Assembly: GCA_973895155.1 (NCBI GenBank) | Contig: OZ316893.1 | Span: 14,600,645 to 14,664,644, forward strand | Length of the DNA stretch: 64,000 bases | Direction of reading: 5' to 3' | Source: Marsupella aquatica | Taxonomy: Eukaryota > Plantae > Marchantiophyta | Shown here: in pieces, positions 27,027-64,000 of the stretch | Layout of the letters: each line of letters starts with the position of its first letter | Position numbering within the stretch: position 1 is the stretch's first letter | Program-made: the position numbers and the translations under genes | Notes under the pieces: model-generated | Database searches by the model: none | What the model was told of the DNA's origin: nothing | What the model saw: the letters and a program-made list of their open reading frames with translations, nothing else

Positions 27027-27440
27027 GGTGGCAAATGCAATCCCACTTTCACCGAATTGCGAAACACTCCCTTCAAATCACGAAACCTCCTCCTGTGCGT
27101 TCGAACGTCCTACTCGACTCCTTCAGCCGTGCGAATCGTGCTACAAAAACAAATCACACCTGTTCGTAATTCCCCTTTCCTGAATCACAGCAGCCTACAC
27201 TGACCAAATTCACTCCGCTTCAAAATCTTTCTTCAAACTCTGTCTACAGAATTGACACCTCCTTTTCTTCGAGTGCAATCTTCTATTCTGCAGAGCCTCA
27301 ATCCTATCTTCGTTCGAGAGAAACTCCTCCCTATTCTTGTTATTGTTCGTCTGTCGTCGATGTCCACTAATCTGTCACCTGCAACAGCGATCAACGAAAT
27401 GCGAATCACAACATGGAAATCACAGCGTGTTGCGCAGGGC

Positions 27441-38541: not shown

Positions 38542-39061
38542 CAGCTTTTTATTATACTACCCCCCAAACTGGTAGTTATTAGGATACTGCCCCCAAAACT
38601 AATATATTTAGTATACTGCCCCCCACACCATATCCCATCACTTTTAACCCAAGTACTTGACCACTGCTGTGTTCCGATTGGCCAAAAAGTAACCATAGTC
38701 GATGACCAACCTTACCACAGTATCATCTTCGCCCGGGCTCAAGGCGCAACCGTGTTTGATCAGTGTGTATGGGGTCGAAAGTGCCGCACTCGCATTGGGG
38801 ATTGCAGCCTGAAGTGGTTCTGACCCCATACACAGTGATCGAACACAGTTGCACCTTGGGCCCGGGCGAAGAAGATATTGCAATAAGGTTGACCTTAGGT
38901 CATCGACTATGGTTACTTTTTGGCCAATTGGAACACAGCAGTGGTCAAGTACTCGGGTTAAAAGTGATGGGATACGGTTTGGGGGGCAGTGTACTAAATA
39001 TTTTAGTTTTGGGGCAGTATCTTAATAACTACCAGTTTGGGGGTAGTTTAGTAAAAAGCTG
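38542..39061. mobile_element. Mutator-type foldback MITE, 520 bp
   Basis: ~235-bp terminal inverted arms (CAGCTTTTTA...TAAAAAGCTG) and a 10-bp TSD TTAGGAACAA (38532-38541 and 39062-39071). Confidence 0.9.
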
Positions 39062-40582
39062 TTAGGAACAATGTATACACTGAAAATTTGGTGTTTACAA
39101 TAGATTTTACAATATCTCAAAATTTAGATGAAGATTAAAGTCAATTTAACTCTCCCTTTGATCGCTCAAGCATATCACTAAATACAATATGGTTGATTCC
39201 ATGTTGTTGTCAAGATCAATCATCAAATATATGCAACACAAAGGTATCTTCACAAATTCATGATCTTCTTATTACTTGACTAAATTGGCCAATGGTAGGC
39301 TGATTAGAAAGTTAGAGAGTCTGATGATTTTCTTAAAAAAACACTCATCCTATATTTGTTTTACTTCCTCCCTGTCTGTAGTTTTTCCATTCAATTCCTC
39401 CCTCACCACATACTCTTCCGTGGTCCAAGTCCAGTAGGGGGTCTCAACCCTCAAAATTTGATGGACCTTAACTTAGTACTTAAGATTACAGACATAAAAA
39501 GTTATGGATTATCAAATTCATAGTCCATAACTTTTTGCCACAAAGGTTGGTCGTATGTCATGACCATAAGTCAGTCTTCTAGAGGCTAGTTAAAACAACT
39601 TCTACATAACGTACCCTGTAAAAAGCTATGAAGCTATGACCATTTGTTTAAAGGATGTGTTGTGGACTCATTGAGCAATGCATAGGATAATGACAGCCTA
39701 GTCTTGGGTTACTAGCCTGTATCTCTGTCACCAGATCGTGAGGGAACCCTAACCAATGGCTGTTGAGAAGCTTTTTGCGCTTTCTTGTCAAACAAGATAG
39801 CATGAATGAAGGTTATCAATGACAATCCCTATATGTATAATCATCAAATGAATGTGAGTGTGTATTCTGTCTGAGTAATCAACTGAATATGAATGTGTCG
39901 TAATGCCTCATGGGGCTAACATCTATACAAATGGACGACTATGGCCTTCACATTATTGAATGTAAACTCCTCACACACAAGGAGAAAACTGTATTGCAGG
40001 TTGTGACTACCCCTAATAATTCTAAGTCCTACTCTAGTGCCCAAGCCTGTTAATTGAAATAGTGCAATTATTCATGGCCTACACATCTGCAAAGATTGTC
40101 TTCACTGGATTCACCATAAGAGCACAAAGGTTCCCAAAATGGTCATCCCAGTGACCCAGTTAGCATTGATCCAACCCTCATCAATGAAGTTGATTTGGTT
40201 GTCGTTATTCACACCATAATTGAACTCACTTGCAGTGTTAGATATTGCTCCAGTCTTGTGACTCATGAGCTAACCACAGTTAGTCTAACTCGGGTTAGGA
40301 CTTAGCTAATGTTAGCGGTAGTGTTGTTGTGCATATAGCCAGGGCTGATGCCAGACCCTGGTGGAACTTAGGCTCATTGTTACAGAGCTAGTTGAGAGAT
40401 AGGGAGAGCTTGTGTTGTGGATGCTTGGTATATGGCCGGTCGGCCTAGAGTGCAGTAAAGCTCTTGTGTGTTCCCGTGGACGTAGCCTCATGTGGAGGTG
40501 AACCACGTATCTCTCTGTGTCAACTATTGTGCGTTGGATAGTTCATGAGCTTGCCGTTGTGAATGTCGTCTATGCTCAACAA

Positions 40583-45269: not shown

Positions 45270-47535
45270 GAATCCCATGTCAAGTTGTTGGACTTGGATC
45301 TGTAAGATTTCAGATGTTTGATGGTGCTATGAGAACGTTGAGAAATATGAGACATATTCCCAGCATGATGAAAATTTTTATTCACTTGGAGTTCTGCTAA
45401 TGGTGTTTTTCAGGTTTCAACTGATACTAAAGTTGTATTGAAGGGAAAGAGACATAGCAATCTATACGTTTTGGAGGGCAGTGTAGTCTGTGATGAAGCC
45501 AATGTAACCTTATCTCATGAGGAGACGGCCCGGCTGTGGCACTTCCGTTTGGGCCACATGAGTGAAAAAGGTTTGGTTATTCTTCCAAAGAAAGGATTAC
45601 TTTCTAATTTGCAATCTTGTAAGTTGGAATTTTGTAAGCACTGTGTGCTTGGGAAGTAGCACAAAAAACCCTTCGGAGTTGGAACTCACACCAGCAAGGA
45701 GGTACTTGAGTATGTACATAGTGATGTGTGGGGTCCAGCCCCTACTCCCTCACATTCTGGATGGTTATACTCAAGGTATATGTGGATATACTTTCTACAC
45801 AGTAAGTGTGATGTTTTTGCCACTTTTAAGGAGTGAAAAGCCCAAGTTGAGAATCAGACTGATAATACGATGAGATATCTACGATCAGATAACGGCGGTG
45901 AATACAGTTCTGGTGAATTTGGGTCATATTGTAAGGAGCAAGGATTTACACGCCATCTCACAACAAGTTATACTCCTCAGTAGAATGGTGTTTTTGAGAG
46001 ACTCAACCGAACACTATTGGACCGCTCGAGGAGTATGTTGAGTCAATCATGCTTATCACATGAGTTTTGGGCTGAAGCTGTCAACACTACAGCTTATTTG
46101 GTAATTTTTTCTCCATCCAGTTCTATTGGATTCAAGACGCCATTTGAAATGAGGTACGGGCGTCCAGCAGATTACTCATATCTGAGTATTTTTGGATGTG
46201 ATGCTTATGTGCTTACACCTTCCCAGCTTCAATCCAAGCTGGAGTCCAAGTCGAAGAAGTGCATTTTCCTTGGCTATCAGAAAGGTGTGAAGGGTTATAG
46301 GTTATGGGATCTAGTAACCTGTAAACTAATTGTCAGTAGAGATATGTCCTTTAATGAATCCAGATCATCAAAGGAGGGGGAGAGTTCTCAGGATTCCCAT
46401 ACTGACAAGGGGAAATCTCTCATCCCGGACCGGGTTGAGGGGGAGATTAGTCATGATATTGTTCATGACAGGAGAGATGGAGAAGCTTCGGGCTTGGAGC
46501 TGGTTCCTGTGATGGAACAAGAGGAGCAAATTATTGCTGGGGTACCTCAAATTCAACTAGCAGCAGCAGCAAATCAGCCTGAGTCATCTACTATAAGAAC
46601 TTCCAGTTGTTCTACTAGAGCTCCTACCAGGTATGGTCAATGGGCAGACTCATCTAAGCTAGATGATATTGACATTGCACCTGATGATGATGACATGGCT
46701 TTGATCTTGGAAGAAGGAGAGCCTTCTTCGTACAGTGAGGCTTGTGCTTCATAGCAGAAGCATGAGTGGGATGCAGCAATGCAGAGGGAGTTGCAATCTT
46801 TGAGTGACAACAAGACATGGAAGCTGGTGGAGCTTCCAAGAGGTCAACAAGTGGTGGACAGCAAGTGGATTTACAAGTTGAAGGACAATCCTTCAGAGGG
46901 TGGAGATAAGATCTACAAGGCAAGGCTTGTTGCCAAGGGGTTCACTCAGGAGAAAGGAGTGGACTACAATGAGGTCTTTTCACCGGTGGCTAAGTATTCT
47001 ACAATTCGGATCTTGTGTCAGCTTGTTGTGTTTTTTGGTCTGGTGATGGATCAAATGGATGTTGTTACTGCTTTTCTCTATGGCAACTTGGAAGAGTTGA
47101 TCTTCATGAGACAGCCACTAGGCTTTATGAAGAAGGGCCAAGAGAACTTAGTTTGTAGATTGCTCAAGTCCTTGTATGGATTGAAGCAGTCTCCCAGACA
47201 GTGGAACAAGCGGTTTGATGATTTCATGTTTGCTCAAGGTTTTACAAGGATGGTGTATGATCCTTGTGTGTATACGAAATCAGTCAAGAATGATATATTT
47301 GGTTTCATCATTCTGGTTATCTATGTGGATGACATGCTGATTGTGGCTAAAGATCAATCTGAGGTTGACAATCTCAAGGCGAAATTGAGTGTTGAATTCA
47401 GGATGAAGGATCTTGGTAAGGCCAAGAGGATCTTAGGGATGGAGATTTTTAGGAACTCTGATACTGGACAGTTGTGCTTGAGTCAAGGCCAGTATGCGAG
47501 GAAAGTACTTGCACGATTCAACATGGAAAACCCGG
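45270..47535 (+). pseudogene. Copia pol pseudogene (protease tail, GAG-pre-integrase, integrase, RT)
   Basis: LWHFRLGHMSEKG...CKHCVLGK*, YVHSDVWGP, FWAEAVNT, KCIFLGY, YKARLVAKGFTQ, SLYGLKQSPRQW and YVDDML, with several stops and frameshifts. Confidence 0.93.
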
Positions 47536-50192
47536 TGAGCTGTTGCAAGATAACCCGATGTACAGACGCCAATTGAGAGGGTTGTTGGCAGGAAAGAGAA
47601 GGCGGCGTAAGTTGCCAGAGGTGGATGTATTACGATTGGAATGGGAGGATAAGGGACCACCAGAACTTGATTTGCAGATTCAAGGATGTGTGGTGAGGAA
47701 AGTACCAGTGGATGGGGGGTCCAGCGTCAACCTCATGACTCAGCAAACCGCATTCAATCTTGGGTTTACTAAGTTTGAACCAACACCCAAGATCCTACGC
47801 ATGGCGGACCAATCTCGAGTTGTTCCAGCAGGAAAGTTAAGTAAGGTCGATACCCTGATTGCTGGTGTTCCATTTACTTTGGAATATGTGATAATAAGTC
47901 CAGAGGTACCTTCAAGCCTCCCAGTTTTGTTAGGCCGGCCTTGGTTGTATAAAGCTCAAGTGCAGGTGAACTGGAGGAATCAAGAGATGTCGTTTGGTAA
48001 GCCCAAGGTTGTGGTGAGTTGGGCTTCAGACATACATAAGGGTGAAACCCAAACTGATGATGGTTATACATCAGACTTTTCGGATTCTAACTTGATTCTA
48101 GAGCCTCTGGAGTTTGAATTGGAAGAAGTACGATACCTGGAGGTTTATCTGTTCGATGCCACGAGGGAAACGGAAAGAGCACCAGTGGACACCTCTTGAC
48201 AATTAAGCCTAGGGACGCAGCCGCCCAGCCTACAAGGAGAGCACTTGGTTGACGAGAGGAGCTCGAAGGATACAGCCCAACCAGCACCTGTTGAAGGAGG
48301 GCAGCCCCCAGATATCCAAGATGAAACAGAGTCCAATCTTGGTAAATTAGAGCTTACACCATCCAATCTAACTGATGGTATAGTAGACCCCAAAGCATGT
48401 CAACAGATCGAGATTGAACCCGGCAAATTTCTCAACATAGGTAAGCATATTCAGGGGGAGTTAAGGGGATTGTATGTGAACTTATTGACTCAGTATAAGG
48501 ACGTATTTGCCTGGAGCCACTCGGATCTGAAAGGCATCCACCCTCATTTGGGCGAACATCGGATTGATTTGATGGAAGGGGCAGTACCCATCAGGCAAAG
48601 GCAATATCGCTTGAACCCAAAGTATTCTGTACTTGTCAAGGAGGAATTAGACAAGTTGACAGCTGCTGGGTTCATCTACCCAGTATTGAGCAGCGAATGG
48701 GTTTCACCAATTGTGATCATTCCTAAGAAGGCAGGACCTGATGGGAAGATTAAAATCAGAGTTTGTCAAGACTTTCAGAAACTAAATGCAGCCACCAAGA
48801 AGGATCACTATCCCTTACCTTTTATTGATCTAGTGCTCGATCTTGTTGCATTACATGAACTATATAGTTTCCTGGATGGCTACTCCGGTTATAATCAGGT
48901 TTCTATTCGTAAAGAGGATCGAGAGAAAACCACCTTCACTACTGATTGGGGTACTTATGCATTTACTATGATGCCATTTGGCCTATGTAATGCACCTGAA
49001 CTTTCCAAAGGATTATGATGATCATTTTTCAGGAGTATTTGAGGCATTTCATGGAGATCTTTATCGATGATTTTTGCGTGTTTGGATCAGCCGTTGACCA
49101 TTTGATGCACCTAGAGAAGACTTTTCAGAAGTGTAGAGAGGCTCAGTTGTGTTTACATCCAGAGAAGTGCTTTATTGGTATGAAGGAGGGTATCCTACTC
49201 GGGCATGTCATTTCCCAACGTGGAATTGAGGTGGATAAGGAGAAGGTGCGGGTGATTATGGAACTTCGACCCCCTGCGGATTTAAAGAAACTTCGTGCTT
49301 TCCTGGGGCATGTCGGGTATTATCGTCGATTCATTTACAAACATGCCAATGTTGCTTTGCCTTTGACCAAACTGCTGAAACAAGATGCACCCTATGTTTG
49401 GAATGAAGAAAGACAACAAGCTTTTCAAACACTTAAAGATCGCCTTGTGACTACGCCCATTCTCTTACCACCAGATTGGAGTAGGAAGTTTCATGTTTTT
49501 ATTGACTCGTCTGCCTTCTGCATTGGAGCTAATTTGAGTCAAAAGGATGATGACAATCGGGACCATCCCATTTATTATGCCAGTAGGCAGATGAGTGCTG
49601 CTGAGAAAAACTATACAGTTACAGAAAGGGAGGCCTTAGCCATTGTTTTTGCCTGTAAAAAATTTTGTCATTATCTTCTTGGATATCAGATTATTTTTCA
49701 CACGGACCATCACTCTTTGAAATACCTGGTTAATCAAGTTGACCTGTCAGGAAGGGTAGCTAGATGGGTACTCCTGCTTCAGGAATTTGATTATGAGGTG
49801 CAAGTCCGTCCAGGGAAACACCATGAGAATGCTGACTTCTTGTCGAGACTTCCAGGTGAAGAGAATGACAACAACCTTTTCTGACGAATTTCCGGATGAG
49901 GCTCTTTGGCATATTGAAGGAGAGTCCTCGAAATACTTTGATATTGTGCAGATGTTGCTATATGGGGTATTTCCAGAAGGACTAAATGCTGAGGAGAGGG
50001 TTGTTTTTGCACACAAGGTGGGTCCTTATACTATTATAAAAGGCACCTTATTTAAGCAAGGACCGGATCAGAGGTTAAGGCGTTGCCTTGAGATGAGAGA
50101 GATTCCACCGGTAATTGCAACCTTACACTCTGGTGAGATAGGCGGCCACTATGCTGTTAACACCACTGTTAAGAAAATCCAAGATGCAGGGT
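47536..50192 (+). pseudogene. Ty3/Gypsy (non-chromovirus, Athila/Tat-related) pol fragment: protease, RT, RNase H, start of integrase
   Basis: VDGGSSVNLM, WVSPIVIIPKK, KDHYPLPFID, FLDGYSGY, FIDDF, YTVTEREAL and GGHY...KIQDAG. One in-frame stop at 48197 and two frameshifts; cut at 50192. Confidence 0.93.
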
Positions 50193-52831
50193 CCCTGGGC
50201 CCTCACTATGTGTATATTAATGAAACCCACCTGTGAACGACCCCCTCTCCAAAAACCTTCAGTACTATTTTTTGTCCTTTTAAAAAACTCTTGTTAATAT
50301 TAATAAATTATTTTTGGACCATTAATAAAGCCCTTTGGGCTATTATAATCATCACCAAAATATCATTAAATATGCCCTTCACGTATTATAAAAAAATATG
50401 TCAAAGAGATTCTGAATTGGAAAAACTGAAATATACATATATCATTTTGAGATAACATATACTTTATGTACACATTTCCTCGTACACATGCATTTCCTCA
50501 GGAAAATAAGGAGGCACATAAGAGTCAAAGATCATGCAAGTAAAGCTTATAATTGGAACACTATCATCTATGAAAATTGTAAGAATACAACATTTGACAT
50601 ACTTAGTCCTATAGTTCATGTAAATCTAAACCTACCCAAAACTTCTATCTAATCACTTTTCACTAAAATGATAATTTTCACTAAAGCACATAAATAACTC
50701 TGGTTTAAAACACTCTCTCAGATATCATGTTTGATATACTTCATCGGAAGCAACATGCTTAAACACCTTTGTCGACTTGACCTCCTCTTCCTTAGGGGGC
50801 CAAGTATGGCCATACATTTCTTAGTTGATATAATCCTCTAGAAAATATAATCTTCTAGACAATACCATAATGCTGCAACTGGTCAAAACAGCTTTGAGCC
50901 TGAACAACAATAAACCACATATTCATTAACATTTCATGGAATGACTCACGTTTGCTTAGAAACTGAACATTAGGTAACAGTCAAAACCAGATTCTAAACC
51001 TAGACACAGTTTTCTACAATAAAATAACAAATCCATTTGAAAATTTACTTACCAAATATCACATTCAATCAATTTTGCTCTTTACAAAGTTTTCCAATGC
51101 AATTTGAATACTTTTGGATGCAAAGGATTGACTTCAAGGGTGACTGTTGATATCTCACAGTCTAAATCAATCCATTGAGGATCACACACAGAGTACCTAA
51201 ATTTCTCCTTATTATTACCAATTGGAGTAAACCAATTAAAGAACACTTTGCATGCAACTTCTGGACCAGGCCTATCAAGCAAGTCCATTGGTTCTCGTGA
51301 TCTTCCACTTGTGTTTCCATATTTCCGTTGAATAGTTTGAGCTCTTCCTATCCACCAAACATATTTTGGACTGCTGGTTACTGACACAACTGGAACTGGC
51401 AAACCACTAGGCCTCCTTCGCTTCTGTCTCCCATTCTGTGTGGTCTCAGTGCTTCTCGTCACTCTTCCCTGTGCTATCTCATCCACAAAAAATACTCCAC
51501 AATCGCTGCCGACACTCATCATCATAGTTGTAGCACCCACTCGTACTTTTGGTTTATCCACCAAATTGTTGAAGTAAAAACTTTGTTTCACCCGTGTCAA
51601 ACGATCCTTGCTAAGATGAGGGTTCCCTACCATTTGACTAACTAAAGTACTCTTATACATTATTTGACCCTCAAAACTCACAGTGGGAACAACTGTGACA
51701 CCAGACTCACCATACACTAAATCTGTGTGTATATCAGACATTACAGCATAACAGCTATCTCGAGCTATGTGTACATCTGGCACCCCATCTTCAAGCACCC
51801 CATCATGGAGGGCTGAATTTGCCTCTTCAGCTCCTATAGTGGAGGATCCAGCTACTGTACATGGACCTTCTGGAATAAGTTGTATATTTGCTATTTGTCT
51901 GGGGTTAGGTCTATCCACCAATGTTGCATCCTCATCCACCTCCAAGGATTCCACATTTATATCACACCATGGTGTGTACCTTTTGCCTCAACTTCCCATG
52001 GTGAATCCCACCATATAGTGTTTCTAGCAAATGTGGAAGGGTTCATCTGGGCCTGAGTAGCAACATCTTTGGCTAACAAAAAACCTTCTTGCAAAGCCCT
52101 CACGATATCTGTATTAGTTTCAATCCCTGTATAGTCTGTTTGACTAAATTTTCTTGGAGACCCATGTGGTACTGGGTGGAGTTTCATCCAAATATTTCTG
52201 TGTTTTTTGTGACTGTGAGCAGCTCCCACTATTCCTTCACTCAGGTCCATTGTTGTCAATCGGTTCAAAGAGGTTGCACAATCAACCAACTCAGTCAGGT
52301 CATAACTTCGTTCATGACCATTCATGCCTCCCACTTTTGAAAAAAATTGTTCACAACTATCTAATCCAGTCAGATGTAGAGGCACAGGCAACTCAGGAAA
52401 GTGGTCTATGAATTGAATAATCAAAAGTGGCACAAAATGCACAGACATATGAATGTCAAGAAATGTTTGCATAGGGATGCAATTTTGCTTGAAACTTATT
52501 GGCTGTGTATTACCACCTACAGAGTGATTCCCATGGAAACACCACATTCGCCAGAGTCTGAAAAAGAACCCCACTTTGCCACACAAAACAATCCTCTGCC
52601 TCAAGCTCAAGCTTGTATTCAGGAAAATGTCAACATAATCAGCACATATTCCCAAATAAAGTTCTGAGCCAAGAGTCATCTCTTGTCTGACATCTGGTCG
52701 ATTTCGTAACATGAAGAGTGTATTGATAAGTTTTCGACTACAAAGTCGTTGGGCACTAGTCCAATTTTTCCTGTCTGACCTTAGAACATCCTCATGATTC
52801 ATTGCATGATCTTTGACATCATACAATTCAT
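50193..52831 (-). mobile_element. DNA transposon with CCCTGGGCCCTCACT terminus, P-element-superfamily-like; interrupted by the CACTA
   Basis: The first 15 bp are identical to the left end of the MITE at 40583. It begins exactly where the Gypsy integrase breaks and carries a transposase-like remnant. Confidence 0.78.
51082..52831 (-). pseudogene. C-terminal half of a P-element-like DDE transposase (frameshift near 51960; N-terminus displaced by the CACTA)
   Basis: DRKNWTSAQRLCS resembles P/THAP9 DxMNVxxAxQLFS, and LTGLDSCEQFFSKVGGMNG resembles the catalytic-E motif QDxLENFFxxIRxxGG. Confidence 0.62.
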
Positions 52832-55800
52832 CACTAGTAGAAACCGGGGTAATTTAGACCATACCTTATAGGACTAAGCCCACTAAGTCCTTCTTCCATA
52901 CTTTAAATGACTTGCACCCATTGCCAAGGTTTTGTTAAAGACTATAAAAGACTTTGAGTGTTTTCCGGTTTAGTTAAAGACTATGAAAAGTAACCTTGCT
53001 ACTTTGTGAAGGGTGAACACTCTAGGACATCATGGGTTTTGTTCTTGGAATCACTCTAAAGGTCCACACAAAGACTAGTTTAATACAAAGTCTTACAAGG
53101 GTTCATGATAAGAGTATACTTAAGAAGGACCGGGCGACATGCTACTTTTGGGTCTAAGTGCTTAAGGACATGCCTTCTATATATCACCAACCTTAACTAA
53201 CATTGCATCGTAAATATCCATGTAACGGGTACTTTTCATAACTTAGGGTACAATTGTAGGGCTTAGGGTGGTTTCTAACCGGAATCGGAACTAATGCATC
53301 ACTATAACCCTAGCTAGGTACAACTCCCACACCATGATATATTCCGCATTGCCAACTAGTGTTGTTTTGACAGGGTCATGGGCACTAATTGACACAATGA
53401 ACAGTCCACAACTTGATTGATTTGAGTGTAAATGATGGTGCCTTTTGATCCAAGATTAATTCCACAAGGGGGGGGGGAGGGTTAGGGGGGCCCACAACTA
53501 ATTAAGTGGCCATGACTTTGTCACCAAAGGGATTTATTTAAAGTTATCCTTAACCCTCTTTAGTTTTGTGTGTTGCCTAACACTCTGGCACAAACGTACT
53601 TATTATGCTCAACGGGTCACCTCAACGGAAACGAGCTTACATGACTGCTTGCACTAAGTATTGGGTTAGGGTGAGTGTGCTTTGGTCATCAGGTGATTAT
53701 TGGGTTTTTGTGAAGGGAACTATCGAGTACTTGCGCCCCTGTGTTCGGGCCCCATTGTGCGACAGAACATTGTGCTTTGCTTCTATGAGTGGAGCATACG
53801 AGTAGGGTTTAGGGTTAATATTTTGCGAGGGAAGCTGGGAGGCGATTGTAGTCAATTGTTGCCATCCACTCCTGCGAGCGCTTTTGACAGTTCTACCTGC
53901 ATGCCCCTTACAATTGTTTGGACAAAGGAGTTCAGCAAGTGGTTTGCGCTGGTTTGGGACCTTGACAGTCGTGAGGTGGTAAGGACATTGAGGCATCCCT
54001 GAGAAGCGCTTGATGGTAAGGACATTGAGGTGTTGGAGACATTGAGGCGTTGCGGACATTGCCTTAGAGGCTCTTGAGGCCAGTGACAGCTTTTGGCGCG
54101 AAGGCAAGCGGAGATTTGTCTCCTGCCTGAGAGCTGACAGCTTCGGATTGAGACAACGTGGCACCAAGATTCAGAGAAGACTGACTGGCTGGGACCGACC
54201 GGTCTTGGGAAGTTGCAGCCGTGGAGGGACCGGGAGCGCTAAGGTACATTGCAGCTACGAGCAGCAATGCACCTGCCATAGTGACATTGAACTGCCCTGA
54301 ATCACCCTGGTTAGTCCAAACTTCCATTTGCAAGTTAGTTTTGGTAGTGGCTTTGGTTTTCTAGGCGGAATGAGCTCCGATGCCATGCATTAAGAATGTG
54401 GGAAATGCTATTTTGTAGCTTGCTACCTCATAGTGCTAATTTCAACTTCAGGTTTGCGTGGTTTTGGGCGATAAGCTTGTGGCTCATTCGGACTGAGTGA
54501 CCTTCCTGCGGGCCCTGCCCTAAGTGTTCACACTTCTCGCCGTCCCAAACTGCGAAAGGCTTCTCCCCGTTCTGTATCCCTGCTTCAGTAATTGTATTGA
54601 GGTCTTTCAATCAGTCTCATAGGGGAGGTCATTGTCTTCTCTGTAAGTTGTTGCTCCTATCGCACTACCAAGCTTGTTGAAGGGAGCTACTATCGCGAGC
54701 TGCTACCATTGCGAGCTACTACCATCGCAAGTTGTTGAGGAGAGGGCCAGTTGTTTGCGAAAGGATTTCCAGATTGTGTCGGAGGTCCAGATTTCTTGCC
54801 TGTGGGTCCCCATGTTTGCAGTTTTTTCCTGGCTTCTTGCGCAGTGCTCCGACGTAGTACCCATGATGCTAGTCTGAACGGATTCATGAGCTGTGACTGA
54901 TTTGCTGTTCAAATGATGTCTTCAACTAGAGCTACAATTAGTGTCTGCGGAGCTGCCAACCAGGTGCAGGTGTGATTGAGGTCAGTTCAACTGTTGGGTT
55001 GCCCGAATGTTCCGTTGCCATCATTTGTAACCACGAGCAATGGACTTTAGAGGCGGGATTTTCTAGGGATTTCTGCTCAACCCTTTGCTGGCTTTCTACA
55101 TTGAGGTCTATTTTGGGGTTCGGGCAAAGGGCGGAGGGCAAAGATCAAGCATTGCAGTTTTGCTAACGCTGCATGGTGGAAATTGGACCAGCCAACTCCT
55201 TGTCTACGGTGTTGTGGAGCTGGGCGAGCTGCGACAAGGGACCAAGCCAGGCGACCTGTAAATCAAAGCCCATTGACCGCTGCTGAAGGTTTGATGTTCT
55301 ATATTTGAAGCTCTCGTTTGCTTTCTATTTGTCAGTCTTTCACAACTGCGCATTAGTGTTGGCCCTATCCTCCGTCCCTCTGCTGGCCTGCTACTGACAT
55401 TTGGTTAATCATAGTTGTTCACTACTGTGCATTAGTGTTGGCCCTATCCTTCGTCCCTCTGCTAGCCTGCTACATTTGGTTAATCAAAATGCAATGTCTG
55501 TCTGAGTGAGCTGATCATCTCCAATGTAGTATGGGCTTGGGATTTACATATATGTTTCCTGCTTCCAGCAGATAGGCAATTGCTTCCAAGCTCTTTGGTG
55601 CAGACGTCTCTATGGAATGCAATGCCCTATATGCCAGAGCTTTCATATATTGGCATGTTCACATTTGCTCTTGGAATATATGATCCCGAAAGCTTCATGA
55701 GCAGTTTATGTTCAGAATTCTGTTTATGTTATTGTTTCCGTCAATTGCAGCTTGGATTTTTGAATATATGTCCTGTCATTGATGATAGAGGGTGGTTGAG

Positions 55801-58146
55801 ATTGGTTTTCGTTCTTCTTGGTAGTGGGTCAGTGTGTTGGCATTTTCCTCATGTCACTCATTCTCATCGGACGAGCTGCGGATTGGTACTGAATAGTCAT
55901 TTAGCCTATTGCTGCCTCCCACCGCCATTGCCGATTGCCGCTATCATCGTGTATTGCTTGCTTGCTTGCCACTGCCTTTGTTGGTTGCCACCCTCTTCAC
56001 ACTCTCTCGCATCTATCTTCCGATATGAACGCGCAGCCAAGCCCACCAAAAGCTCTGTCCCTACAATCCCTCCCAAATCAACTTCCTTGTTTCCTGCTGC
56101 TCATGATCACCGCATTGTTCTTCCCTATTTTTGTTTACTTATTGGTCTCTCCACACTTGTTGCTTCACATGACTATTTTGCTCCTCCCTGGATCCAAACA
56201 TGCCTTGTGCCCAATGCTCCCACGGTGGAGTGGGGTGGTGAATAGACGACCTCAACACCATTGCAATCACATTTGGATGGGTTAGTTTTTTGCAGCTTAA
56301 ACCTGTCGGGATTTTGCGCTTGTGGCGACGCTATCCTTTCTGCCACTTCATGAGTTTGTTTATGCTGCAGTGGGCGGTCTTGCGCAACTCAATGAGCCAA
56401 TTTCATTTTCCCTGTGCACTTCTATTTCTCAGAGAATTCCCTGGTCATGCTCATTTGCCCCAGAGTTAGAAAACAAAGAAGAAGAAGAGCTGACTAATTG
56501 TAATTCCAATCCATATCCTGATCGGTCAAGGATTGTGAACTACATTGGCCTTGTCATTGGCCGAGGTCACCAAATTTTGCTTGGTTTCATTCCTGTGGAG
56601 CACTGTTGTGATGGATGAATAGTTGTCGTAGCATTCTGCAAACTCTCACGGTTTGCTTATGGCCATTATTTGCAATTTGCTGCTACTAATATGTCTCCGA
56701 CTGAGCAGCATACACCGGAAGTAAGCAATAGTGGAGGTTTAACTGCACATCAACACATCCAGTGAACTACCTCTCTGCTGCTCACTGGAGGGTGAGACTT
56801 TCACTCTTTCTGGATATTGTAGTTTGTAAGCAAGTTGATTAGGAGTGTTTCATGCTATGTTTACATTGTGACCCCTAGCTGGAACCAATGGAATGACACA
56901 GTGAGTGGGAACTGATAATTTAAGGTTGGTTGCTGTTGGTGAGGCAAGTACAGCTCCTGCTCACCTTGCTGATCGAAGGTGCTTATCAGAGGACGTGAAC
57001 ACACGACACTCCACAAAAGCAACACTTATGGTGAGGACCCGCAATGCTGAACATGTGCGGCTTGCACGCAAGGCAGAGATGTTGCACCTTGAGTATGTCA
57101 GACTTGGGATCCTTCCAGCCCAGTCTGCATGGTACTTTGAGTACCCAGTTGTTGCCAGGAATAACTACAGCCGCCCTGTACCTGCTTCTCCACCCTTCCC
57201 AACATTCTTGGTATTTTTGTCTCTCGTACATGACCCGCCACAAATTAGGGCCCAAGGGTGTGTGCACAGTTGCCAGTATGACTGTCCTGCCTGTAGGGCT
57301 TCTGGCCTAGAGTTGGATGACCATTCTCTTGGATGTCGGTTTTTTCACAGAGCACAATGTATCATCTAGAACCACTCGCCATCCTGCAGTGTGCCTGGCG
57401 ATGTCACTTGTCCTGCCCTCCCAGACCCCACCACCGGTCACTTTGGTGTCTACACATATTTGGATCACACGCTGTAGAAGACCACTTGTCACACCGCATG
57501 CACAGACCAGAGACCATTGACCTATAACTTAACACTTTGACTTGAACAGAGAGGATATTTACTTAAGATTTTGAATTATGAGCAATTTTGGGTCCAGGGT
57601 TTACGGTCAACAGTACATAACTTATCCTATTATGGCTGCACTAAGTACAATATCCTAATTTAAGAGGCTAGCAAGCTCACTTAAAAGTCTCCTTTCAAAG
57701 ACTGGAATTAATGGGCCATGTGATAACCTGGAAAAAGTGATTTATGCCTAACTTATTTGTCTCATTCACTATCATAGCCTATTTAGGATGTATAAATTAC
57801 AACCCTGATCACACTGCTTGATACCAATCCTGTTCAAAAAATGCCTGTTTTACATGTCACGACTATTATATGTGATTCAAATGCATTAAATCTTGTTGCA
57901 GATCTCCTTTGGTGAATCATAGCCACAAAATTGAGGTGTAGGTGGAGCTATTGTACGAGGGGATCAGTTTTTAGTGTGGGCTCAATAAACCAAAAAGTAT
58001 GTCTACTCTGCACATGTGTATGAACATTTCATTGCAGTAGCAATTGCCACTCTAGTCTATATGCTACATTGTACTTTTTGTACACTGCACTAAATTGTAT
58101 TGTCTGTGCACTCTACTAAATTGTACTATCTGTCTCAGGCGTAGGC

Positions 58147-58827
58147 ATGGCACGCCCTAAAATCCGAGCCAAGAAGCGGGGGACAGAGGTGAGCAACACA
58201 GGTGTAGTTGGGCCAGATGGTAGTAACTTCTCCGCAAGTCAGATTTTCCAGAAGGCAGCTCATTGTTGTGCCATTTGTGACGATGGTGGTGGCTTAGCCA
58301 TATGTGAGGGCCCTTGCATGAGGCATTTCCACCTCAACCCGGAGTCTGACCTTGCTGCAGAAAACAACTGTCCAGGGGTGGGCCTCCCGTCAGCACACCA
58401 GGGAGGCTGGATGTGCACTGATTGTTTGGAGAAGCAGGCTAAGTGTGCACAGTGTGGGAAGTTGGGGTCTTATGAGGGCTCTGTTGATGCTCCACCACTT
58501 GTTAGGAAATGCCCTGACAGATATTGTGTGAGGTTCTTTTGTTTTTCATGTTTGCCCGATCTTGCCACAGCTTGCCCACTTCATAAGTGCAAGGCATGTG
58601 GTCAGCACGATGAAGATTTCTGGGTGGACATAGTCCACTGTGTTAGGTGTCCCACCATGTGGCACTTTCATTGTTTGAAGGAGCGTCAAGCAGAAGGCTA
58701 TGCTTGTGACAGACACATCTATCATCACTCTGCACATGGTGTTGATCGATCGATCTTCTATTGTCATCGCCATGCCATAGATCCTACTTTGCACACTCCC
58801 ATGAGAGATCACATTTCTTGGCTTTGA
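58147..58827 (+). CDS. Stand-alone EDM2-type PHD-finger cluster protein, 226 aa
   Basis: CAICDDGG..ICEGPCMRHFH, CGKLGS, CPLHKCKAC, CVRCPTMWHFHCL and FYCHRHAIDPTLHTPMRDHI are collinear with the EDM2 PHD region. Basic N-terminus; splice acceptor TCTCAG at 58138. Confidence 0.85.
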   Translation: MARPKIRAKKRGTEVSNTGVVGPDGSNFSASQIFQKAAHCCAICDDGGGLAICEGPCMRHFHLNPESDLAAENNCPGVGLPSAHQGGWMCTDCLEKQAKCAQCGKLGSYEGSVDAPPLVRKCPDRYCVRFFCFSCLPDLATACPLHKCKACGQHDEDFWVDIVHCVRCPTMWHFHCLKERQAEGYACDRHIYHHSAHGVDRSIFYCHRHAIDPTLHTPMRDHISWL

Positions 58828-59425
58828 ACCTGAATAATGTACATGCATAGTGCACCTGATGTGGATACCTTGGAGATTGCAGACATTCCAATTTTGAGAA
58901 GAAGGACCTCTGTAGGAGAGGATGCATAGGCAACAAGTACCCTAAGTTCATTACTTGTTCCTGGGTACATGCCTTCAAAAACTCCCCTTAAGCCTTCTAG
59001 GAACTTTTTTAACTCTGCAATCATTTTGATCACGACTTACATGACACTGCTTAAATTAAATCAGGACTTCTCATTATGAGCATATAAGTTACAAGGCTAT
59101 TTAATTTGCGAGAATTCCCTTAAAGTGTACCAACATTTTCTATTCTCATTGAATGTCTGCCCATTTACAACATCTGTATGTGGCATCACAAAACAATTGC
59201 ACTTGTCACCTTCAATATTGTCAAGGCACATATTCAAACTATGAGGTGCATGCTTGCAGGTGTCTAGTACGTTTGTCCCAATATTTCTCCCGTTTGGAAT
59301 CGGAGCAGAGACTCACCAGACGACTGGATTGGACCAAGTTATAAACGCAGCATTTTAAGGGCCCTCCGATTATCAGGTGAACGCATTATCTTCCGGTCTG
59401 CAGTGATTAGGTGGCCCGTGTGTAC

Positions 59426-60274
59426 ATGGCCTCTAGGAAACGTACAAAGGTTGACCACCCGCCTCTGTTGGCTGGAATCAAAGCCATTTTGATTCCTGGC
59501 CACTATGGGTTCACCCAAGTGAGTTGGCCAATCGTACAAAAACGATTCTCAGAGTTCCATGGGACTGAAGTCAAGGACATCACTCCACAGACTACACATG
59601 TTGTTGCGGGGACATGGCTGGATGTGATGAACAACTGGTCATGGTCCTTCATTGATTCTGCCATTACCAACCAAGGTCTAAAAGTAGTTGAAGTCTCTTG
59701 GCTGACCGATTCTGTTAAACATAGGTGTGTACAGAGTACTGAGCAATATGAGTTGTGGGAGAGTGAGGAGGCCACTGCAGAGGCTTTGGCTGAAAAGGAA
59801 GCCTATGAAGCAGCGGCAGAGAAACCCAACTTTGCTTCTGTCCAATATGGACCTGTTGTCAACATAGGACACCATCCTATGCGTGCAGATGCTATATTGA
59901 ATGAGCATGGCAAGGAGAGAAATACCATTATGAAGGGGTTCAGTGTGGTATTTGCAGTAGAAGGAATTGGGGAGACTAAGTGCAGATTGTACAAGTCTAT
60001 AGTTGTTGAGCTAGGTGGGACAGTGGAGGAGAGTCTAACAGAAACCTCCACTCATGTTGTAGGTCTGTCATACATGAAAATATGCAGAAAATTCTTTAAG
60101 ACAACAGTGCGTGATTTTGTCATGAACAACAATCTTTGGGTGCTTTCCCCTGATTGGCTTCTGGAATCAGCAGCTAGAGGGAAGCGACAGAATGCTTGGG
60201 ACTTTGATATTTTTGAGGCCTGGCCCTCCAAGATTCAGCGGAGATGTATGCTTAGCAAAGGTGGGAGAGAGTGA
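59426..60274 (+). CDS. Tandem BRCT-domain protein, 282 aa
   Basis: Two repeats with G...THVV and W(L)xxS motifs (TTHVVAG...VVEVSWLTDSV and LGGTVEESLTETSTHVVG...VLSPDWLLES). N-terminal MASRKRTK is NLS-like. Confidence 0.82.
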   Translation: MASRKRTKVDHPPLLAGIKAILIPGHYGFTQVSWPIVQKRFSEFHGTEVKDITPQTTHVVAGTWLDVMNNWSWSFIDSAITNQGLKVVEVSWLTDSVKHRCVQSTEQYELWESEEATAEALAEKEAYEAAAEKPNFASVQYGPVVNIGHHPMRADAILNEHGKERNTIMKGFSVVFAVEGIGETKCRLYKSIVVELGGTVEESLTETSTHVVGLSYMKICRKFFKTTVRDFVMNNNLWVLSPDWLLESAARGKRQNAWDFDIFEAWPSKIQRRCMLSKGGRE

Positions 60275-60450
60275 GGAGTAGGAGTCCCTCATATTTTTGT
60301 ATAAATCACAATTTTGTAATAAATATGATCCTTGAACTAACTCATCTTGTCATGGTTGGTCGCAGTTGAAGTGATTGTTGTTTCCTGCTGCGTGGGGTGT
60401 GACTGTGAATCTACTTGCTGGGCTCTGTTTGGCTGAAGACTTTGGTGGGT

Positions 60451-60984
60451 ATGCTGCCTCTTCCAGACCGTCAGGCCCTATGTAGGGTCCTCCTACGGGT
60501 TGCATCGTGCATGGCTACTGCTTGGGCTTACTTGTGTGGATTGGTAACCAGACAGAGTGTAGCTCCATCCGAGATAATGCCTGCAGACCTTGGATGTGTT
60601 GTGAATGCTGTGGTGAATGAGGATGCACAGTCGGAAGAGGATATTTACTTTTCAGCAGATGAGTTAGACAAGCACGATGCTGTAGGTGGTTCCTTGTTGC
60701 CTGATTTGGCAGATGATATAGTTCTTGCACATGTCTGGCCGAGGGTTCTTGTGGTGTCTGGCGCACAAGATATCTGCAAATATAGACTAATTAGTACCCA
60801 GTGGAGGGACTTGGTAGCAACATGTGCACCATGGAGGGCACTGCTGCCACTGCTTGTAGGCACGGATCGAAGACCACCATGGCATGAGCAGGGTTTAGAC
60901 CTTGATGACTTAATGTACATGCCTGAGTACCTCAGGGCTGAGTGGCATCGACAACAGGATTGGTATCCGTATTTGATGTGGTAG
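60451..60984 (+). CDS. Small F-box-like protein (start codon uncertain: 60451 or 60511)
   Basis: SLLPDLADDIVLAHVWPRV...CKYRLISTQWRDLV fits an LPxLPDD...R.V.K.W F-box pattern. Confidence 0.6.
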   Translation: MLPLPDRQALCRVLLRVASCMATAWAYLCGLVTRQSVAPSEIMPADLGCVVNAVVNEDAQSEEDIYFSADELDKHDAVGGSLLPDLADDIVLAHVWPRVLVVSGAQDICKYRLISTQWRDLVATCAPWRALLPLLVGTDRRPPWHEQGLDLDDLMYMPEYLRAEWHRQQDWYPYLMW

Positions 60985-61310
60985 TAAGATGAGGACATCT
61001 CACACCGGTCTCGCACCTGGCACCTGTGTCTATGACTATACATGATTGGACTCTGATATGGTCATGGATGTACGTGCAGAGGCAGTACATGTGAGGACAG
61101 CGGAGGAGTTGACACCCTCAAACATTTAGGAATTTTGTCTCATTCACTTGAGAATAGGTACATGACTCAGGCACCTATATTTTTTATTTTTTTATTTTTT
61201 TGGAACGTTACGTATTTTGGCAAGTACAGTCGAGGGTGAAATCCTTAACAGGAAGTGTATTTTTCACTTGCATAATAAAATGACAGGGTGCTGAGTGCGT
61301 GTGTATAGTG

Positions 61311-64000
61311 ATGGCTCCAAGGTTGCCTCTTCACAACCCATTTAGGATTAGGCATCATGATTCTAAATTGTGGATGCGTGAACAAGCCCGGGCCGCCCAA
61401 GGTAGGAGTAGGAGGATGAGATGCCCATGCACACAGTGCCAAGGATTCAAGTCGTTGAGTTTGAACACTGTGCACCTTCACCTGCTGCGGCATGAAAGGC
61501 ACCCTCGGTGGAGGGTTTGGAATGTACCAGCAGAAGAAGACTCCTCTGATGAAGAGTGGAGAGCTGACTTTGTGGATTCTAATATAGCTAGGCGTAGAGA
61601 CTATGTAGAGCAGGACATAGACTGTGCAGAGGATGGTCCTGGGGTCCAACATGAGAACGTGGATGACCAAGATGGAGATGGAGAGGCAGTCACTGAGGAC
61701 GGTGGGATGGATGTCCCAAGAATGGTTCAAGAGATTTTTGAAGACCTTGATGCTTTTTACGACACAGTGGAATCAGAAGAGGACAATGAACCGCAGCCAC
61801 ACATTGGCGACGGACAAGCTGAACCTGACTTTGACATTGGGGAAGGTGCAGCAAAGAGGGAGTGGGTGTTTGGGGGCCCAAAACACATCAAAGAAGCTTG
61901 CATTCCTATCTACGAGGGGTCGAACTGCTCCAAGCTGGGTTTTGTCGTGTTGTTGTTGAACATCTGTGGCAATCACAATGTTCCCAATATATTTGTGACA
62001 GAGTTGTTGACCTTCCTGCTCCGAAATGTGTTACCAGATGGTAATTCAATTCCAAAAAATATGTACGAGGCTAGGAAATTGATGTCTAACCTTGGGCTGA
62101 ACTATGTGTCTATTGACGCATGCCCTGATGGGTGTGTTCTCTTTCGCAAAGAGCATGCAGATAAATTGACATGCCCTCATTGTGGTAAGCACAGGTACAA
62201 GAATGTAGGGAAATGTACACACCCTGCCAAGGTTCTTCGTCATTTTCCTCTCATTCCTAGACTACAACGTCTGTTTAGATGCCCTGCCATTTCCAAGCTG
62301 ATGACATGGACTCCTGATAACAAGAGCAGTGATGGCCTGCAGCGTCACATTGGAGATTCCAACCATTGGAAATTTGTTGATGAGAGGTGGCCACAGTTTG
62401 CTACAGAGAAGCGGAACTTTCGATTTGGTCTATCACTGGATGGAGTAAACCCATTTGGAGACAAAAACAACCGTTATTCATGTTGGCCGGTTACGCTGCT
62501 AAATTACAACCTTCCCCCATGGATGACTACAAAGAGGTTTTTTGTCATGATGGTGCTGTTAATCCCTGGACCAGCTTCTGTGACCGAGCAATTCATAGAT
62601 ATCATGTTGGCTCCAGCAGTGGAAGAGTGGAAGACTTTGTGGATAGAAGGGGTGTTAACCCATGATGTTCTGAAGGGGCTTCTTCGACCCAGCCCCTTTA
62701 GACTGCATGCAATTTGTTTGCTGGATATAGCAGATTACCCAGGCCATGGCATCATATCTGGACGAGTGACAAAGGGCTATGTGGGGTGCACACCATGTGG
62801 GAAAAATGTGACAAGTGAGTGGTCGCATGCCCTGCACAGTATGAAATTTCAGGGGCATAGAAGGTATCTGCCTGTTGATCATCCTTACAGGCACACACGG
62901 TCTCAAATTGCACACTTCAACAACAAAACAGAGCTTCGTGGCCCACCACAGAGGGTCACCAGAGAGCAAGTCCTGAGGTGGGCAGCCAGGAAGGCTGATT
63001 GGGACAAGAGAAGTGCCACTGATCGAGAACCTGAGGATCCAGTGGTGAAACATGGTGTGAAAAGACAGACCTTGATGGACTTGGAGTTGGAGTACTGGAG
63101 GGTAATGTACTTAGCCTCCAGCCCCTGTATGATTGCAATTTTAGATTGGAGCAATGGTGGATTGATGTTGGTTACAATCCTCCTATGTGGTTAATTAGTG
63201 TTTCTGTTGTTGAATTCTTTGCTTTGTGGAGTGCAGGAATTCGAGCCCAGCAAACACAATGTGGACGTCATGCACATTGAGAAAAATATTTGTGAGAGCT
63301 TGCTGAAGTTCTTGTCGGGTGAGAAAGATACAGGAGCAGTTCGAGCTGATATGCAATAGAAGGGGATTCGCCCTCACCTTTGGTTGAAGCCCCATGCAAG
63401 CAATCCCAATGTACTTCTCAAGTTCCAAGCTCCCTATGTGTGCACACAGGATGAATGGAAGACATTCTTGTATAGATTGAGCTGTCTGAAAGTGCCCTCT
63501 GGCTATGCTGGTGCCTTCAAGAAGCATATTACAAAGAATAAACGTGGCAGTATGAAAACACATGACTACCATGTGTTGATGCAGCACATTCTGCCCCTAT
63601 GCCTCAGAGGTCTCATGCAGAAACCAGTCCGTAATGTCATTCTTCGACTGTGCAATGTATTTCGCCGTATATGTGTGAAAGTGTGGGATCCCCAAGGATT
63701 GGAGCAGTTGAAGCAGGATGCTGCTTATGTCCTCTGTGACTTGGAGATATACTTCCCCCCTGCTTTCTTTGATGTTATGACTCATCTCCTAATCCATGTG
63801 GTAGAAGAGCTAGGGCAGTATGGGCCAGTCAGTACCAGATGGATGTACCCTATGGAGCGATACATGAAGTTGTTGAAAGGTCATGTGAGAACATACTACA
63901 GGCCAGAGGCTTCCATGGCATTGGGGTACATTAAGGATGAGATGTTGGGATTCCTAACAGAGTACATGGCTGGGTCTGGTGAAGCTATGACAAGAGTTTG
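61311..64000 (+). pseudogene. CACTA Tnp2/TnpD transposase (Transpos_assoc, Transposase_21, DUF4218), intron 63102-63236, premature TAG at 63357
   Basis: CPCTQC...HL, IDACPDGCVLFR, LSLDGVNPF, YNLPPW and DYPG in exon 1. After the intron: HNVDVMHIEKN, MKTHDYH, FPPAFFDVMTHL and RWMYPMERYM. Confidence 0.95.

What the first reader, a model, noticed from the sequence alone, without database searches (positions are those of the whole stretch)
58147..58827. Transposon-borne minimal EDM2 PHD module: possible H3K9me2 reader or decoy
Seen: the 226-aa ORF follows the EDM2 PHD region motif by motif, including the non-PHD tail FYCHRHAIDPTLHTPMRDHI (EDM2 from memory: IYCQEHEIDEELLTPVRDHV), then stops. It has no introns and none of EDM2's C-terminal methyltransferase-like region. 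Known: EDM2 binds H3K9me2-marked chromatin and acts with ASI1/IBM2 and AIPP1 to allow full-length transcription through TE-containing heterochromatin. Inference: a TE-encoded copy could promote its own transcript processing in heterochromatin, or compete with host readers. The lack of introns suggests capture through RNA or later streamlining.
Basis: partly seen in the sequence, partly recalled or inferred. Interest (0 to 1): 0.85.

Follow-up and report, generated by a model that had tools for sequence, protein, structure and literature searches.

The report
CACTA transposon carrying EDM2-type PHD gene
A plant jumping gene of the CACTA type carries its own small, intact, evolutionarily conserved gene for a three-finger zinc module related to the host anti-silencing protein EDM2, which likely grips histone tails to help the element work in chromatin, although the mark it reads is unknown and probably differs from EDM2's.

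Summary
58147-58827 is an intact, uninterrupted 226-aa ORF matching Arabidopsis EDM2 residues 225-432 (29%, E 2e-25), including the EDM2-type tail, then stopping. It lies inside a CACTA element: a CACTA terminus at 52832, then ORF113, this gene, a twin-BRCT gene, an F-box-like ORF and a Tnp2 transposase. Gene and transposase have matching, high contig depth in public runs, and two abundant subfamilies keep the frame. Twenty stand-alone relatives (35-81% identical) form one clade and keep 514 of 525 zinc-ligand cells, so this is an old, selected accessory gene, not a host exon. The H3K9me2 claim is unproven. EDM2's acidic tract before finger 1 and several EDM2-invariant residues are replaced, while the canonical H3 Arg2 acid and Ala1-pocket Trp positions remain. 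The best-scoring host relatives are bryophyte EDM2 paralogs that already lack the methyltransferase; the donor is unresolved. Best reading: a likely histone-tail-docking accessory protein serving the element (0.45). No RNA evidence; linkage of distant relatives to CACTA not shown. Transposon-borne readers are known, but ten literature searches found no report of this one.

The parts
52832..52843 (+). CACTA-type left terminus of the element (right terminus lies beyond the window, so no TIR pair or target-site duplication can be checked)
   Evidence: only exact match of the 12-mer in the window (with 2 mismatches the count is at chance level); cuts a minus-strand ORF; depth rises in this bin in 3 of 4 runs (X1 172 to 1677; not in X5)
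53500..56000 (.). low-depth, probably subfamily-specific interior of the element, no recognisable gene
   Evidence: X1 contigs at depth 252-267 against about 1800-1980 further right; no Pfam hit for 55622-56242
57028..57369 (+). 113-aa ORF with Cys/His-rich C-terminus, unknown function, probable further cargo gene
   Evidence: no Pfam hit; highest-depth bin in 2 of 4 runs, X2 and X3, and in X1 too
58147..58827 (+). stand-alone EDM2-type triple-PHD gene, 226 aa: basic disordered N-terminus (likely nuclear signal), fingers at about 41-93, 100-146 and 148-209, EDM2-type tail 210-225
59426..60274 (+). 282-aa twin-BRCT ORF, intact
   Evidence: Pfam BRCT E 7e-14, 2 stretches; X1 contig depth 1768; Atlas hits all BRCT-type, best 0.89
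60451..60984 (+). 177-aa ORF with a weak F-box-like stretch (lead only)
   Evidence: Pfam F-box E 0.08-0.1, under cut-off
61311..63101 (+). CACTA (En/Spm) transposase, predicted exon 1
   Evidence: Transposase_21 E 1e-59, Transpos_assoc E 2e-4; predicted intron 63102-63236
63237..64000 (+). transposase predicted exon 2, running off the window; this copy has an in-frame stop at 63357-63359 that the abundant copies in 4 of 4 runs lack
   Evidence: DUF4218 E 4e-27

Best explanation
This is an intact, conserved accessory gene inside a high-depth plant CACTA transposon; it encodes a free-standing EDM2-type three-finger zinc module that likely enters the nucleus, likely docks on the histone H3 N-terminus of nucleosomes and would thereby help the element's own machinery engage chromatin. 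Shown: location inside the element, co-amplification with the transposase, intact frame in abundant copies, zinc-ligand conservation across an old clade, EDM2-type tail, absence of any catalytic or sequence-specific DNA-binding domain. Inferred: nuclear import by the basic N-terminus; H3 docking on finger 1 (acid at C3+1, D/E in 21 of 21, and Trp88, W in 19 of 21, match the NSD2 residues that hold H3 Arg2 and Ala1); a mark preference changed from EDM2's (N-terminal acid replaced by a family-specific Gln-x-S/A-P/A-His motif); action as an adaptor for transposase or element transcription, alongside the co-carried twin BRCT.
For: CACTA terminus and Tnp2 flank the gene. In run X1 near-identical contigs have depth 1978 and 1872 on the PHD gene, 1768 on BRCT, 1817 and 1912 on the transposase, against 80-172 in the bins left of the terminus; the same step is seen in X2, X3 and, from 56 kb, X5. 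A second X1 subfamily (22 differences in 174 nt, depth 1813) also has the gene; no indel at 5% share or more inside the ORF in the 3 of 4 runs that cover it. Of 38 listed in-ORF variants 16 are silent, 22 missense, 0 nonsense, 0 change a ligand; silent share expected 0.21-0.27, p 0.003-0.03. 21 family members, median pairwise identity 43%, keep 514 of 525 ligand cells against 41% identity elsewhere; 13 of 20 relatives stop within 2 residues of the same terminal W-L/I. One clade, 100/99 and 100/100. Confident fold; best structural match NSD2 PHD tandem, Z 5.5. Precedent for TE-captured readers: 10.1101/2021.11.30.470311, PMC6673714 (passages). TnpA-like regulators appear limited to flowering plants (10.64898/2026.08.24.746577, section 6), leaving room for other accessory factors elsewhere.
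Against: No binding, localisation or expression data; no RNA run could be examined. The canonical N-terminal acid for unmodified H3K4 is absent and the H-2 Trp of a K4me3 cage (recalled) is absent too, so finger 1 may bind histones weakly or not at all, as NSD1's module does (PMC11724302 passages). Contig depth is not copy number and no contig bridges gene and transposase; linkage rests on this assembly plus equal depth. The three metagenome loci with relatives (L001-L003, 1.1-1.9 kb) are too short to show a transposase, so the wider family is not proven to be CACTA-borne. 12 or so of the 17 family-like hits in the representative search are truncated or frame-broken, and low-depth contigs show gaps in the ORF: decay is common. 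The variant test used the 40 best-supported of 107 listed sites.
Confidence: 0.45

Rival explanations
1. One reading: the protein reads H3K9me2 like EDM2 and either recruits the host ASI1-AIPP1 machinery to the element's transcripts or competes with host readers as a decoy.
For: All 25 ligand positions and the tail are kept; EDM2's PHD fingers bind H3K9me2 among other marks (PMC7472560, PMC4980392, passages of reviews); moss transposons are mostly H3K9me2-marked (PMC10952607 passage); the element's ORFs are CpG-depleted (o/e 0.27-0.35 vs 1.07 in HSP101), as expected of long-term methylation.
Against: EDM2-specific surface is remodelled: 12.6 acidic residues per 25 before finger 1 in 46 full-length EDM2-type proteins vs 3.0 in 20 family members; F221/E222, H283 (46 of 46), Q284, F304, W401 (46 of 46) replaced; a 15-20 residue helix in finger 2 deleted. 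RFD and methyltransferase regions are absent. The AAE complex acts on long intronic heterochromatin; the element has one predicted 135-nt intron.
Confidence: 0.2
2. The module no longer reads histones; it is a zinc-stabilised protein-protein or nucleic-acid-binding adaptor, for example for the element's BRCT, F-box-like or transposase products or for a host silencing factor.
For: Family-specific invariants absent from EDM2 (Q35, P76, W172, R189, H194 in 21 of 21; R120 19 of 21) point to a new conserved surface; the H3K4 acid is lost; NSD1's PHD tandem binds a zinc-finger protein rather than histone (PMC11724302 passage).
Against: The Arg2 acid and Ala1-pocket Trp positions of finger 1 are conserved in the family.
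Confidence: 0.2
3. The ORF is the last exon of a longer spliced gene inside the element, or a host gene next to which the transposase happens to sit.
For: A pyrimidine-rich stretch and TAG lie just before the ATG; relatives were predicted by ORF callers on contigs; no RNA seen.
Against: Many relatives begin with the same basic M-A/P-x-R motif at the same distance from finger 1, also in locus L003 without an AG before the ATG; no family-like hit is longer than 257 aa among 150 listed representatives or 304 aa; the 'longer' search gave only 2 tail-less proteins (weak evidence); depth matches the transposase, not the flanking DNA.
Confidence: 0.08
4. A captured EDM2 fragment riding along without function (Pack-CACTA-like passenger).
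For: CACTA elements are known to capture host fragments (PMC13317346 passages); many database relatives are broken; this copy's transposase is broken.
Against: 98% ligand conservation at 43% median identity, shared stop position, a long stem and deep internal branches; excess of silent changes and no nonsense among listed variants.
Confidence: 0.07

Closest known systems
Arabidopsis EDM2 (EDM2_ARATH, P0167) and land-plant EDM2-like proteins
   Same: Three-finger atypical PHD module with C4HC2H last finger and the tail behind it; 29% identity over 211 columns; 24 of 25 ligand positions identical.
   Different: No RFD, acidic tract, methyltransferase-like or proline-rich region; H316 replaced by Cys; finger-2 helix deleted; many EDM2-invariant surface residues replaced; encoded by a multi-copy transposon.
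Methyltransferase-less bryophyte EDM2 paralogs (Riccia P0018, Calypogeia P0015, Marchantia P0069, Ceratodon P0030, Sphagnum P0181)
   Same: End shortly after the tail, lack the methyltransferase motif, share W172 and a proline three residues before Cys1; the three best host scores for the family profile (139-144 bits vs 122 for Arabidopsis EDM2) are liverwort-type paralogs; sister group in the mixture-model tree, 85/92.
   Different: Mostly 470-770 aa with a long N-terminal region, keep the finger-2 His and helix and acidic residues before finger 1; sisterhood is not starred and no alternative placement is rejected.
NSD1/2/3 PHD I-II-III cassette (Pfam PF23011, PF22908, PF23004)
   Same: Same three-finger architecture; profile hits NSD2 at E 3e-13; best structural match is an NSD2 PHD tandem, Z 5.5, rmsd 2.6 over 75 residues.
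   Different: NSD proteins lack the tail, score lower, and carry SET and PWWP domains.
Transposon-encoded chromatin readers and anti-silencing factors (chromovirus chromodomains, CopiaMBD, PHD-TE fusions, VANC, Spm TnpA)
   Same: A host-type chromatin module kept by a mobile element, or a separate accessory gene serving the element (PMC6673714, 10.1101/2021.11.30.470311, 10.64898/2026.08.24.746577; passages).
Pack-CACTA gene capture
   Same: Host-derived coding sequence inside CACTA termini (PMC13317346 passages).
   Different: Intact, old and under purifying selection, in a transposase-coding element rather than a non-autonomous shell with fragments.

Membership tests
EDM2 / EDM2-like proteins | atypical multi-PHD module with C4HC2H last finger | tested here: met
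   one His-to-Cys swap in finger 2
EDM2 / EDM2-like proteins | tail behind the last finger, absent from NSD-type modules | tested here: met
   pattern present in the ORF and in 102 of 133 non-family representatives, absent from P0006, P0007, P0152
EDM2 / EDM2-like proteins | N6-adenine methyltransferase-like (ELP) domain | tested here: not met
   stop codon right after the tail; no match downstream
EDM2 / EDM2-like proteins | N-terminal RFD and acidic tract before finger 1 | tested here: not met
   DNMT1-RFD in 8 of 36 scanned hits, none in the family; acidic tract replaced
EDM2 / EDM2-like proteins | nesting inside the EDM2 clade | tested here: inconclusive
   outside under LG+G4, beside liverwort paralogs under the mixture model; five AU tests reject no placement, p 0.08-0.55
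EDM2 / EDM2-like proteins | H3K9me2 binding and AIPP1/ASI1 association | not testable with these tools
   needs peptide binding and co-IP; primary papers were not held
CACTA (En/Spm) transposon | Tnp2-type transposase with associated domains | tested here: met
   Transposase_21, Transpos_assoc, DUF4218
CACTA (En/Spm) transposon | terminus starting CACTA | tested here: met
   52832, with depth step and interrupted ORF
CACTA (En/Spm) transposon | matching right terminus and 3-bp target-site duplication | not testable with these tools
   beyond 64000; no genome held
CACTA (En/Spm) transposon | multi-copy, cargo co-amplified with the transposase | tested here: met
   equal contig depths in X1, same step in X2, X3, X5; relative only, not a copy count
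NSD/ASH1 histone methyltransferases | SET and PWWP domains with the PHD cassette | tested here: not met
   none in the ORF or its neighbours
VANC/TnpA-type anti-silencing factors | sequence-specific DNA-binding domain and activation of cognate copies | tested here: inconclusive
   no such domain detected and no dense subterminal motif array near the left end; activity not testable

The most novel reading that the evidence does not exclude
A lineage of non-flowering-plant CACTA elements, lacking TnpA, captured the reader module of the host's own anti-silencing factor EDM2 long ago and runs a histone-based counter-silencing and targeting kit of separate small genes: an EDM2-type reader for silenced nucleosomes, a twin BRCT for damaged chromatin at cut sites, and an F-box-like protein for removing a host silencing factor.
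Probability: 0.15. Interest if true: 0.88.

Novelty: new variant of a known kind. Interest (0 to 1): 0.6.

Why it matters
Known plant transposon anti-silencing factors (VANC, TnpA) recognise DNA motifs, and known captured readers are fused to integrases or transposases. A free-standing, long-conserved EDM2-type module inside a DNA transposon would be a third design, taken from a host pathway that lets transcription pass silenced transposons. It is also a natural, well-folding 200-residue minimal version of the EDM2 module, for which no solved structure turned up: comparing the two would map which residues give EDM2 its mark preference.

Tried and rejected
No genome held, so the right terminus, target-site duplication, copy count and host EDM2 could not be examined. 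Run search: no RNA holder listed among 12 runs; no evidence either way. Run X7 laid nothing. First fold with 6 sequences was poor, pLDDT 48; the 72-sequence fold was used. Foldseek gave only partial PHD/PZP matches (TM under 0.3); VIA best Z 5.5 is middling; no EDM2 structure listed. Complex prediction of the module with transposase exon 1: no answer, score 0.00, folded without alignments; not evidence. Context of relatives: metagenome scan 3 loci of 307 pattern matches, all under 1.9 kb, no transposase or BRCT in them; viral (1 of 111) and prokaryote (1 of 32) hits are weak partial matches judged spurious (L004 translated, L005 not examined). A KH-like look of 56301-56615 (recalled motif) was not supported by Pfam. 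Rfam: 0 matches in 52800-64000. No subterminal repeat array found. Donor lineage unresolved. Five look-ups of earlier scan findings gave nothing on this locus or family. Literature: ten searches, read as listings, showed no report of an EDM2-type PHD gene in a CACTA element; the Spm accessory-protein preprint has no occurrence of 'PHD', 'BRCT' or 'moss' in its main text (its supplements were not seen and may list such proteins); the Physcomitrium TE paper has none of 'CACTA' or 'PHD'. Lei 2014, Tsuchiya and Eulgem 2014, Duan 2017 and Lai 2019 were not held. Repbase entries could not be searched.

Full report
Observation. The + strand from 58147 to 58827 is an unbroken 226-codon ORF. It aligns with Arabidopsis EDM2 (P0167, named) over residues 41-225 against 225-432, 29% identity, E 2e-25, and nowhere else. 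Pfam sees weak NSD-type PHD fingers, the Atlas's first hit is a streptophyte NSD-type PHD cluster at 0.93, and the count of CxxC pairs, 6, exceeds all 200 shuffles. With 72 aligned sequences AlphaFold2 gives pLDDT 88 and pTM 0.82, the first 23 residues unfolded and the tail ordered. By the PHD pattern I group 24 ligands into three fingers (41-93, 100-146, 148-209) with one more conserved His at 222; the grouping is inferred. The host is a plant: the window holds a PLS-type PPR gene with E, E+ and DYW domains.

Setting. Downstream lie a twin-BRCT ORF (59426-60274), a weak F-box-like ORF (60451-60984) and a CACTA transposase (Transposase_21, Transpos_assoc, DUF4218) with one predicted intron. 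Upstream lies a 113-aa Cys/His-rich ORF. At 52832 a CACTA-type terminus cuts a minus-strand ORF. The element thus runs from 52832 past the window's end. Contigs of four public runs (3 studies, kind not recorded) laid on 49000-64000 show low depth left of the terminus and a high plateau from about 56.5 kb to the end. In X1, contigs with 0-6 differences have depth 1978 and 1872 on the PHD gene, 1768 on BRCT and 1817 and 1912 on the transposase, against 252-267 in the 53.7-55.9 kb interior and bin means of 80-172 left of the terminus. Depth is not a copy count and no contig bridges the genes, but equal depth along the assembled order is what one amplified unit would give. X1 holds a second subfamily about 87% identical over the PHD gene at depth 1540-1810, and a diverged BRCT copy at depth 1799. 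This copy's transposase has a stop at 63357-63359 that the abundant copies in 4 of 4 runs lack, so the copy is probably non-autonomous while the family is not.

Selection. In the 3 of 4 runs that cover the ORF, the three indels at 5% share or more all fall outside it; low-depth contigs do show gaps inside. Of the 40 best-supported of 107 variant rows, 38 lie in the ORF: 16 silent, 22 missense, none nonsense, none at a ligand; the silent share expected by chance is 0.21-0.27 (p 0.003-0.03). Three homologue searches and one representative search gave a family of short proteins from Logan, JGI and ENA contigs, none with an informative name. I aligned the 20 most complete with the ORF; broken members were left out. 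Median pairwise identity is 43%, yet 514 of 525 ligand cells are kept against 41% identity at other columns. Thirteen of 20 end within two residues of the same W-L/I, one lacks the tail, and most start with a short basic segment. Of the 150 listed representatives (243 in all), 17 fit this family better than EDM2 and none is longer than 257 aa; of the other 133, 102 carry the tail and 66 the methyltransferase motif. The one metagenome locus that covers nearly the whole module without a frame break is also uninterrupted, but all three loci are too short to show neighbours. So CACTA linkage is shown for this element and its close subfamilies, not for the whole family.

Origin. The family is one clade (100/99 on 59 rows; 100/100 on 33 rows) on a long stem. 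Its place is unresolved: outside the EDM2 group under LG+G4, beside liverwort-type paralogs under the mixture model (85/92), and five AU tests reject nothing. EDM2 affinity therefore rests on the tail and on profile scores. Moss and liverwort EDM2 paralogs without the methyltransferase motif, ending just behind the tail, exist (named), and three of them score highest. Whether capture went through RNA could not be tested.

Mechanism. Against 46 full-length EDM2-type proteins the family keeps 24 of 25 ligands and swaps one His for Cys, but replaces the acidic tract before finger 1 (12.6 vs 3.0 acidic residues per 25), F221/E222, H283, Q284, F304 and W401, deletes a helix, and has its own invariants Q35, P76, W172, R189 and H194. 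In NSD2's PHD V the acid just before Cys1 selects unmodified H3K4, the acid after Cys3 holds Arg2, a GxW pocket holds Ala1, and three close paralogs read different marks or none (PMC11724302, passages). By position, finger 1 here keeps the Arg2 acid (54) and the pocket Trp (88) and has His instead of the K4 acid. I infer H3 N-terminal docking with an altered preference. EDM2 binds H3K9me2 among other marks and works with AIPP1 and ASI1 on intronic heterochromatin (PMC7472560, PMC7529245, PMC4980392, passages; the primary papers were not held), so H3K9me2 reading stays possible but does not follow from the sequence. Having only a basic leader and a reader module, the protein must act through partners or by occupancy. 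I favour an adaptor that helps the element engage chromatin (0.45) over the EDM2-like reader or decoy (0.2), a non-histone adaptor (0.2), an exon of a longer gene (0.08) and a passenger (0.07).

Comparison and verdict. Capture of PHD, chromo and MBD readers by transposons is known, mostly as fusions (10.1101/2021.11.30.470311, PMC6673714; passages), as are CACTA gene capture (PMC13317346, passages) and separate anti-silencing genes such as VANC and TnpA, the latter apparently limited to flowering plants (10.64898/2026.08.24.746577, passages and section 6; supplements not seen). Ten searches of the held library showed no report of a stand-alone EDM2-type gene in a CACTA element. It is not a member of the EDM2 family as defined, since RFD and methyltransferase are missing, but a derived module of it. 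New variant of a known kind; interest 0.6.

Noticed in passing
window 59426-60274: Intact twin-BRCT gene inside the same CACTA element, at transposase depth, with a diverged copy in the second subfamily; a second chromatin/damage reader carried as cargo.
   Followed up: partly
window 57028-57369: 113-aa ORF with basic start and Cys/His-rich end, no Pfam hit, in the highest-depth bin of three runs; probably another conserved cargo gene.
   Followed up: partly
window 56301-56766: Open frame broken by one stop near 56616; abundant copies lack 6 nt there, so they may hold a further ORF of about 150 aa; only a weak DUF3499 hit.
   Followed up: partly
window 60451-60984: F-box-like ORF between BRCT and transposase (E 0.1, under cut-off).
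   Followed up: partly
window 51082-52831, minus strand: Two long ORFs cut by the CACTA terminus, no Pfam hit, strongly CpG-depleted and multi-copy by depth; probably an older unclassified transposon.
   Followed up: partly
window 45984-50236: Copia reverse-transcriptase remnant followed directly by a gypsy protease/RT/RNase H remnant: nested retroelements.
   Followed up: no
proteins P0030, P0181, P0018, P0015, P0069: Mosses and liverworts encode EDM2 paralogs without the methyltransferase motif that end just after the PHD tail; Marchantia has a 280-aa form.
   Followed up: partly
proteins P0050, P0195, P0196 (and unnamed P0037, P0058, P0060, P0105, P0147): Grasses have independent short EDM2-PHD-only proteins of 270-380 aa nested among flowering-plant EDM2s; whether they are transposon-borne was not checked.
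   Followed up: no
window 16137-18353 and 24300-27077, minus strand: Long single-frame host genes: a PPR-DYW editing factor and an HSP101/ClpB gene.
   Followed up: partly
window 38540-39063: Long near-perfect inverted repeat (MITE-like foldback).
   Followed up: no
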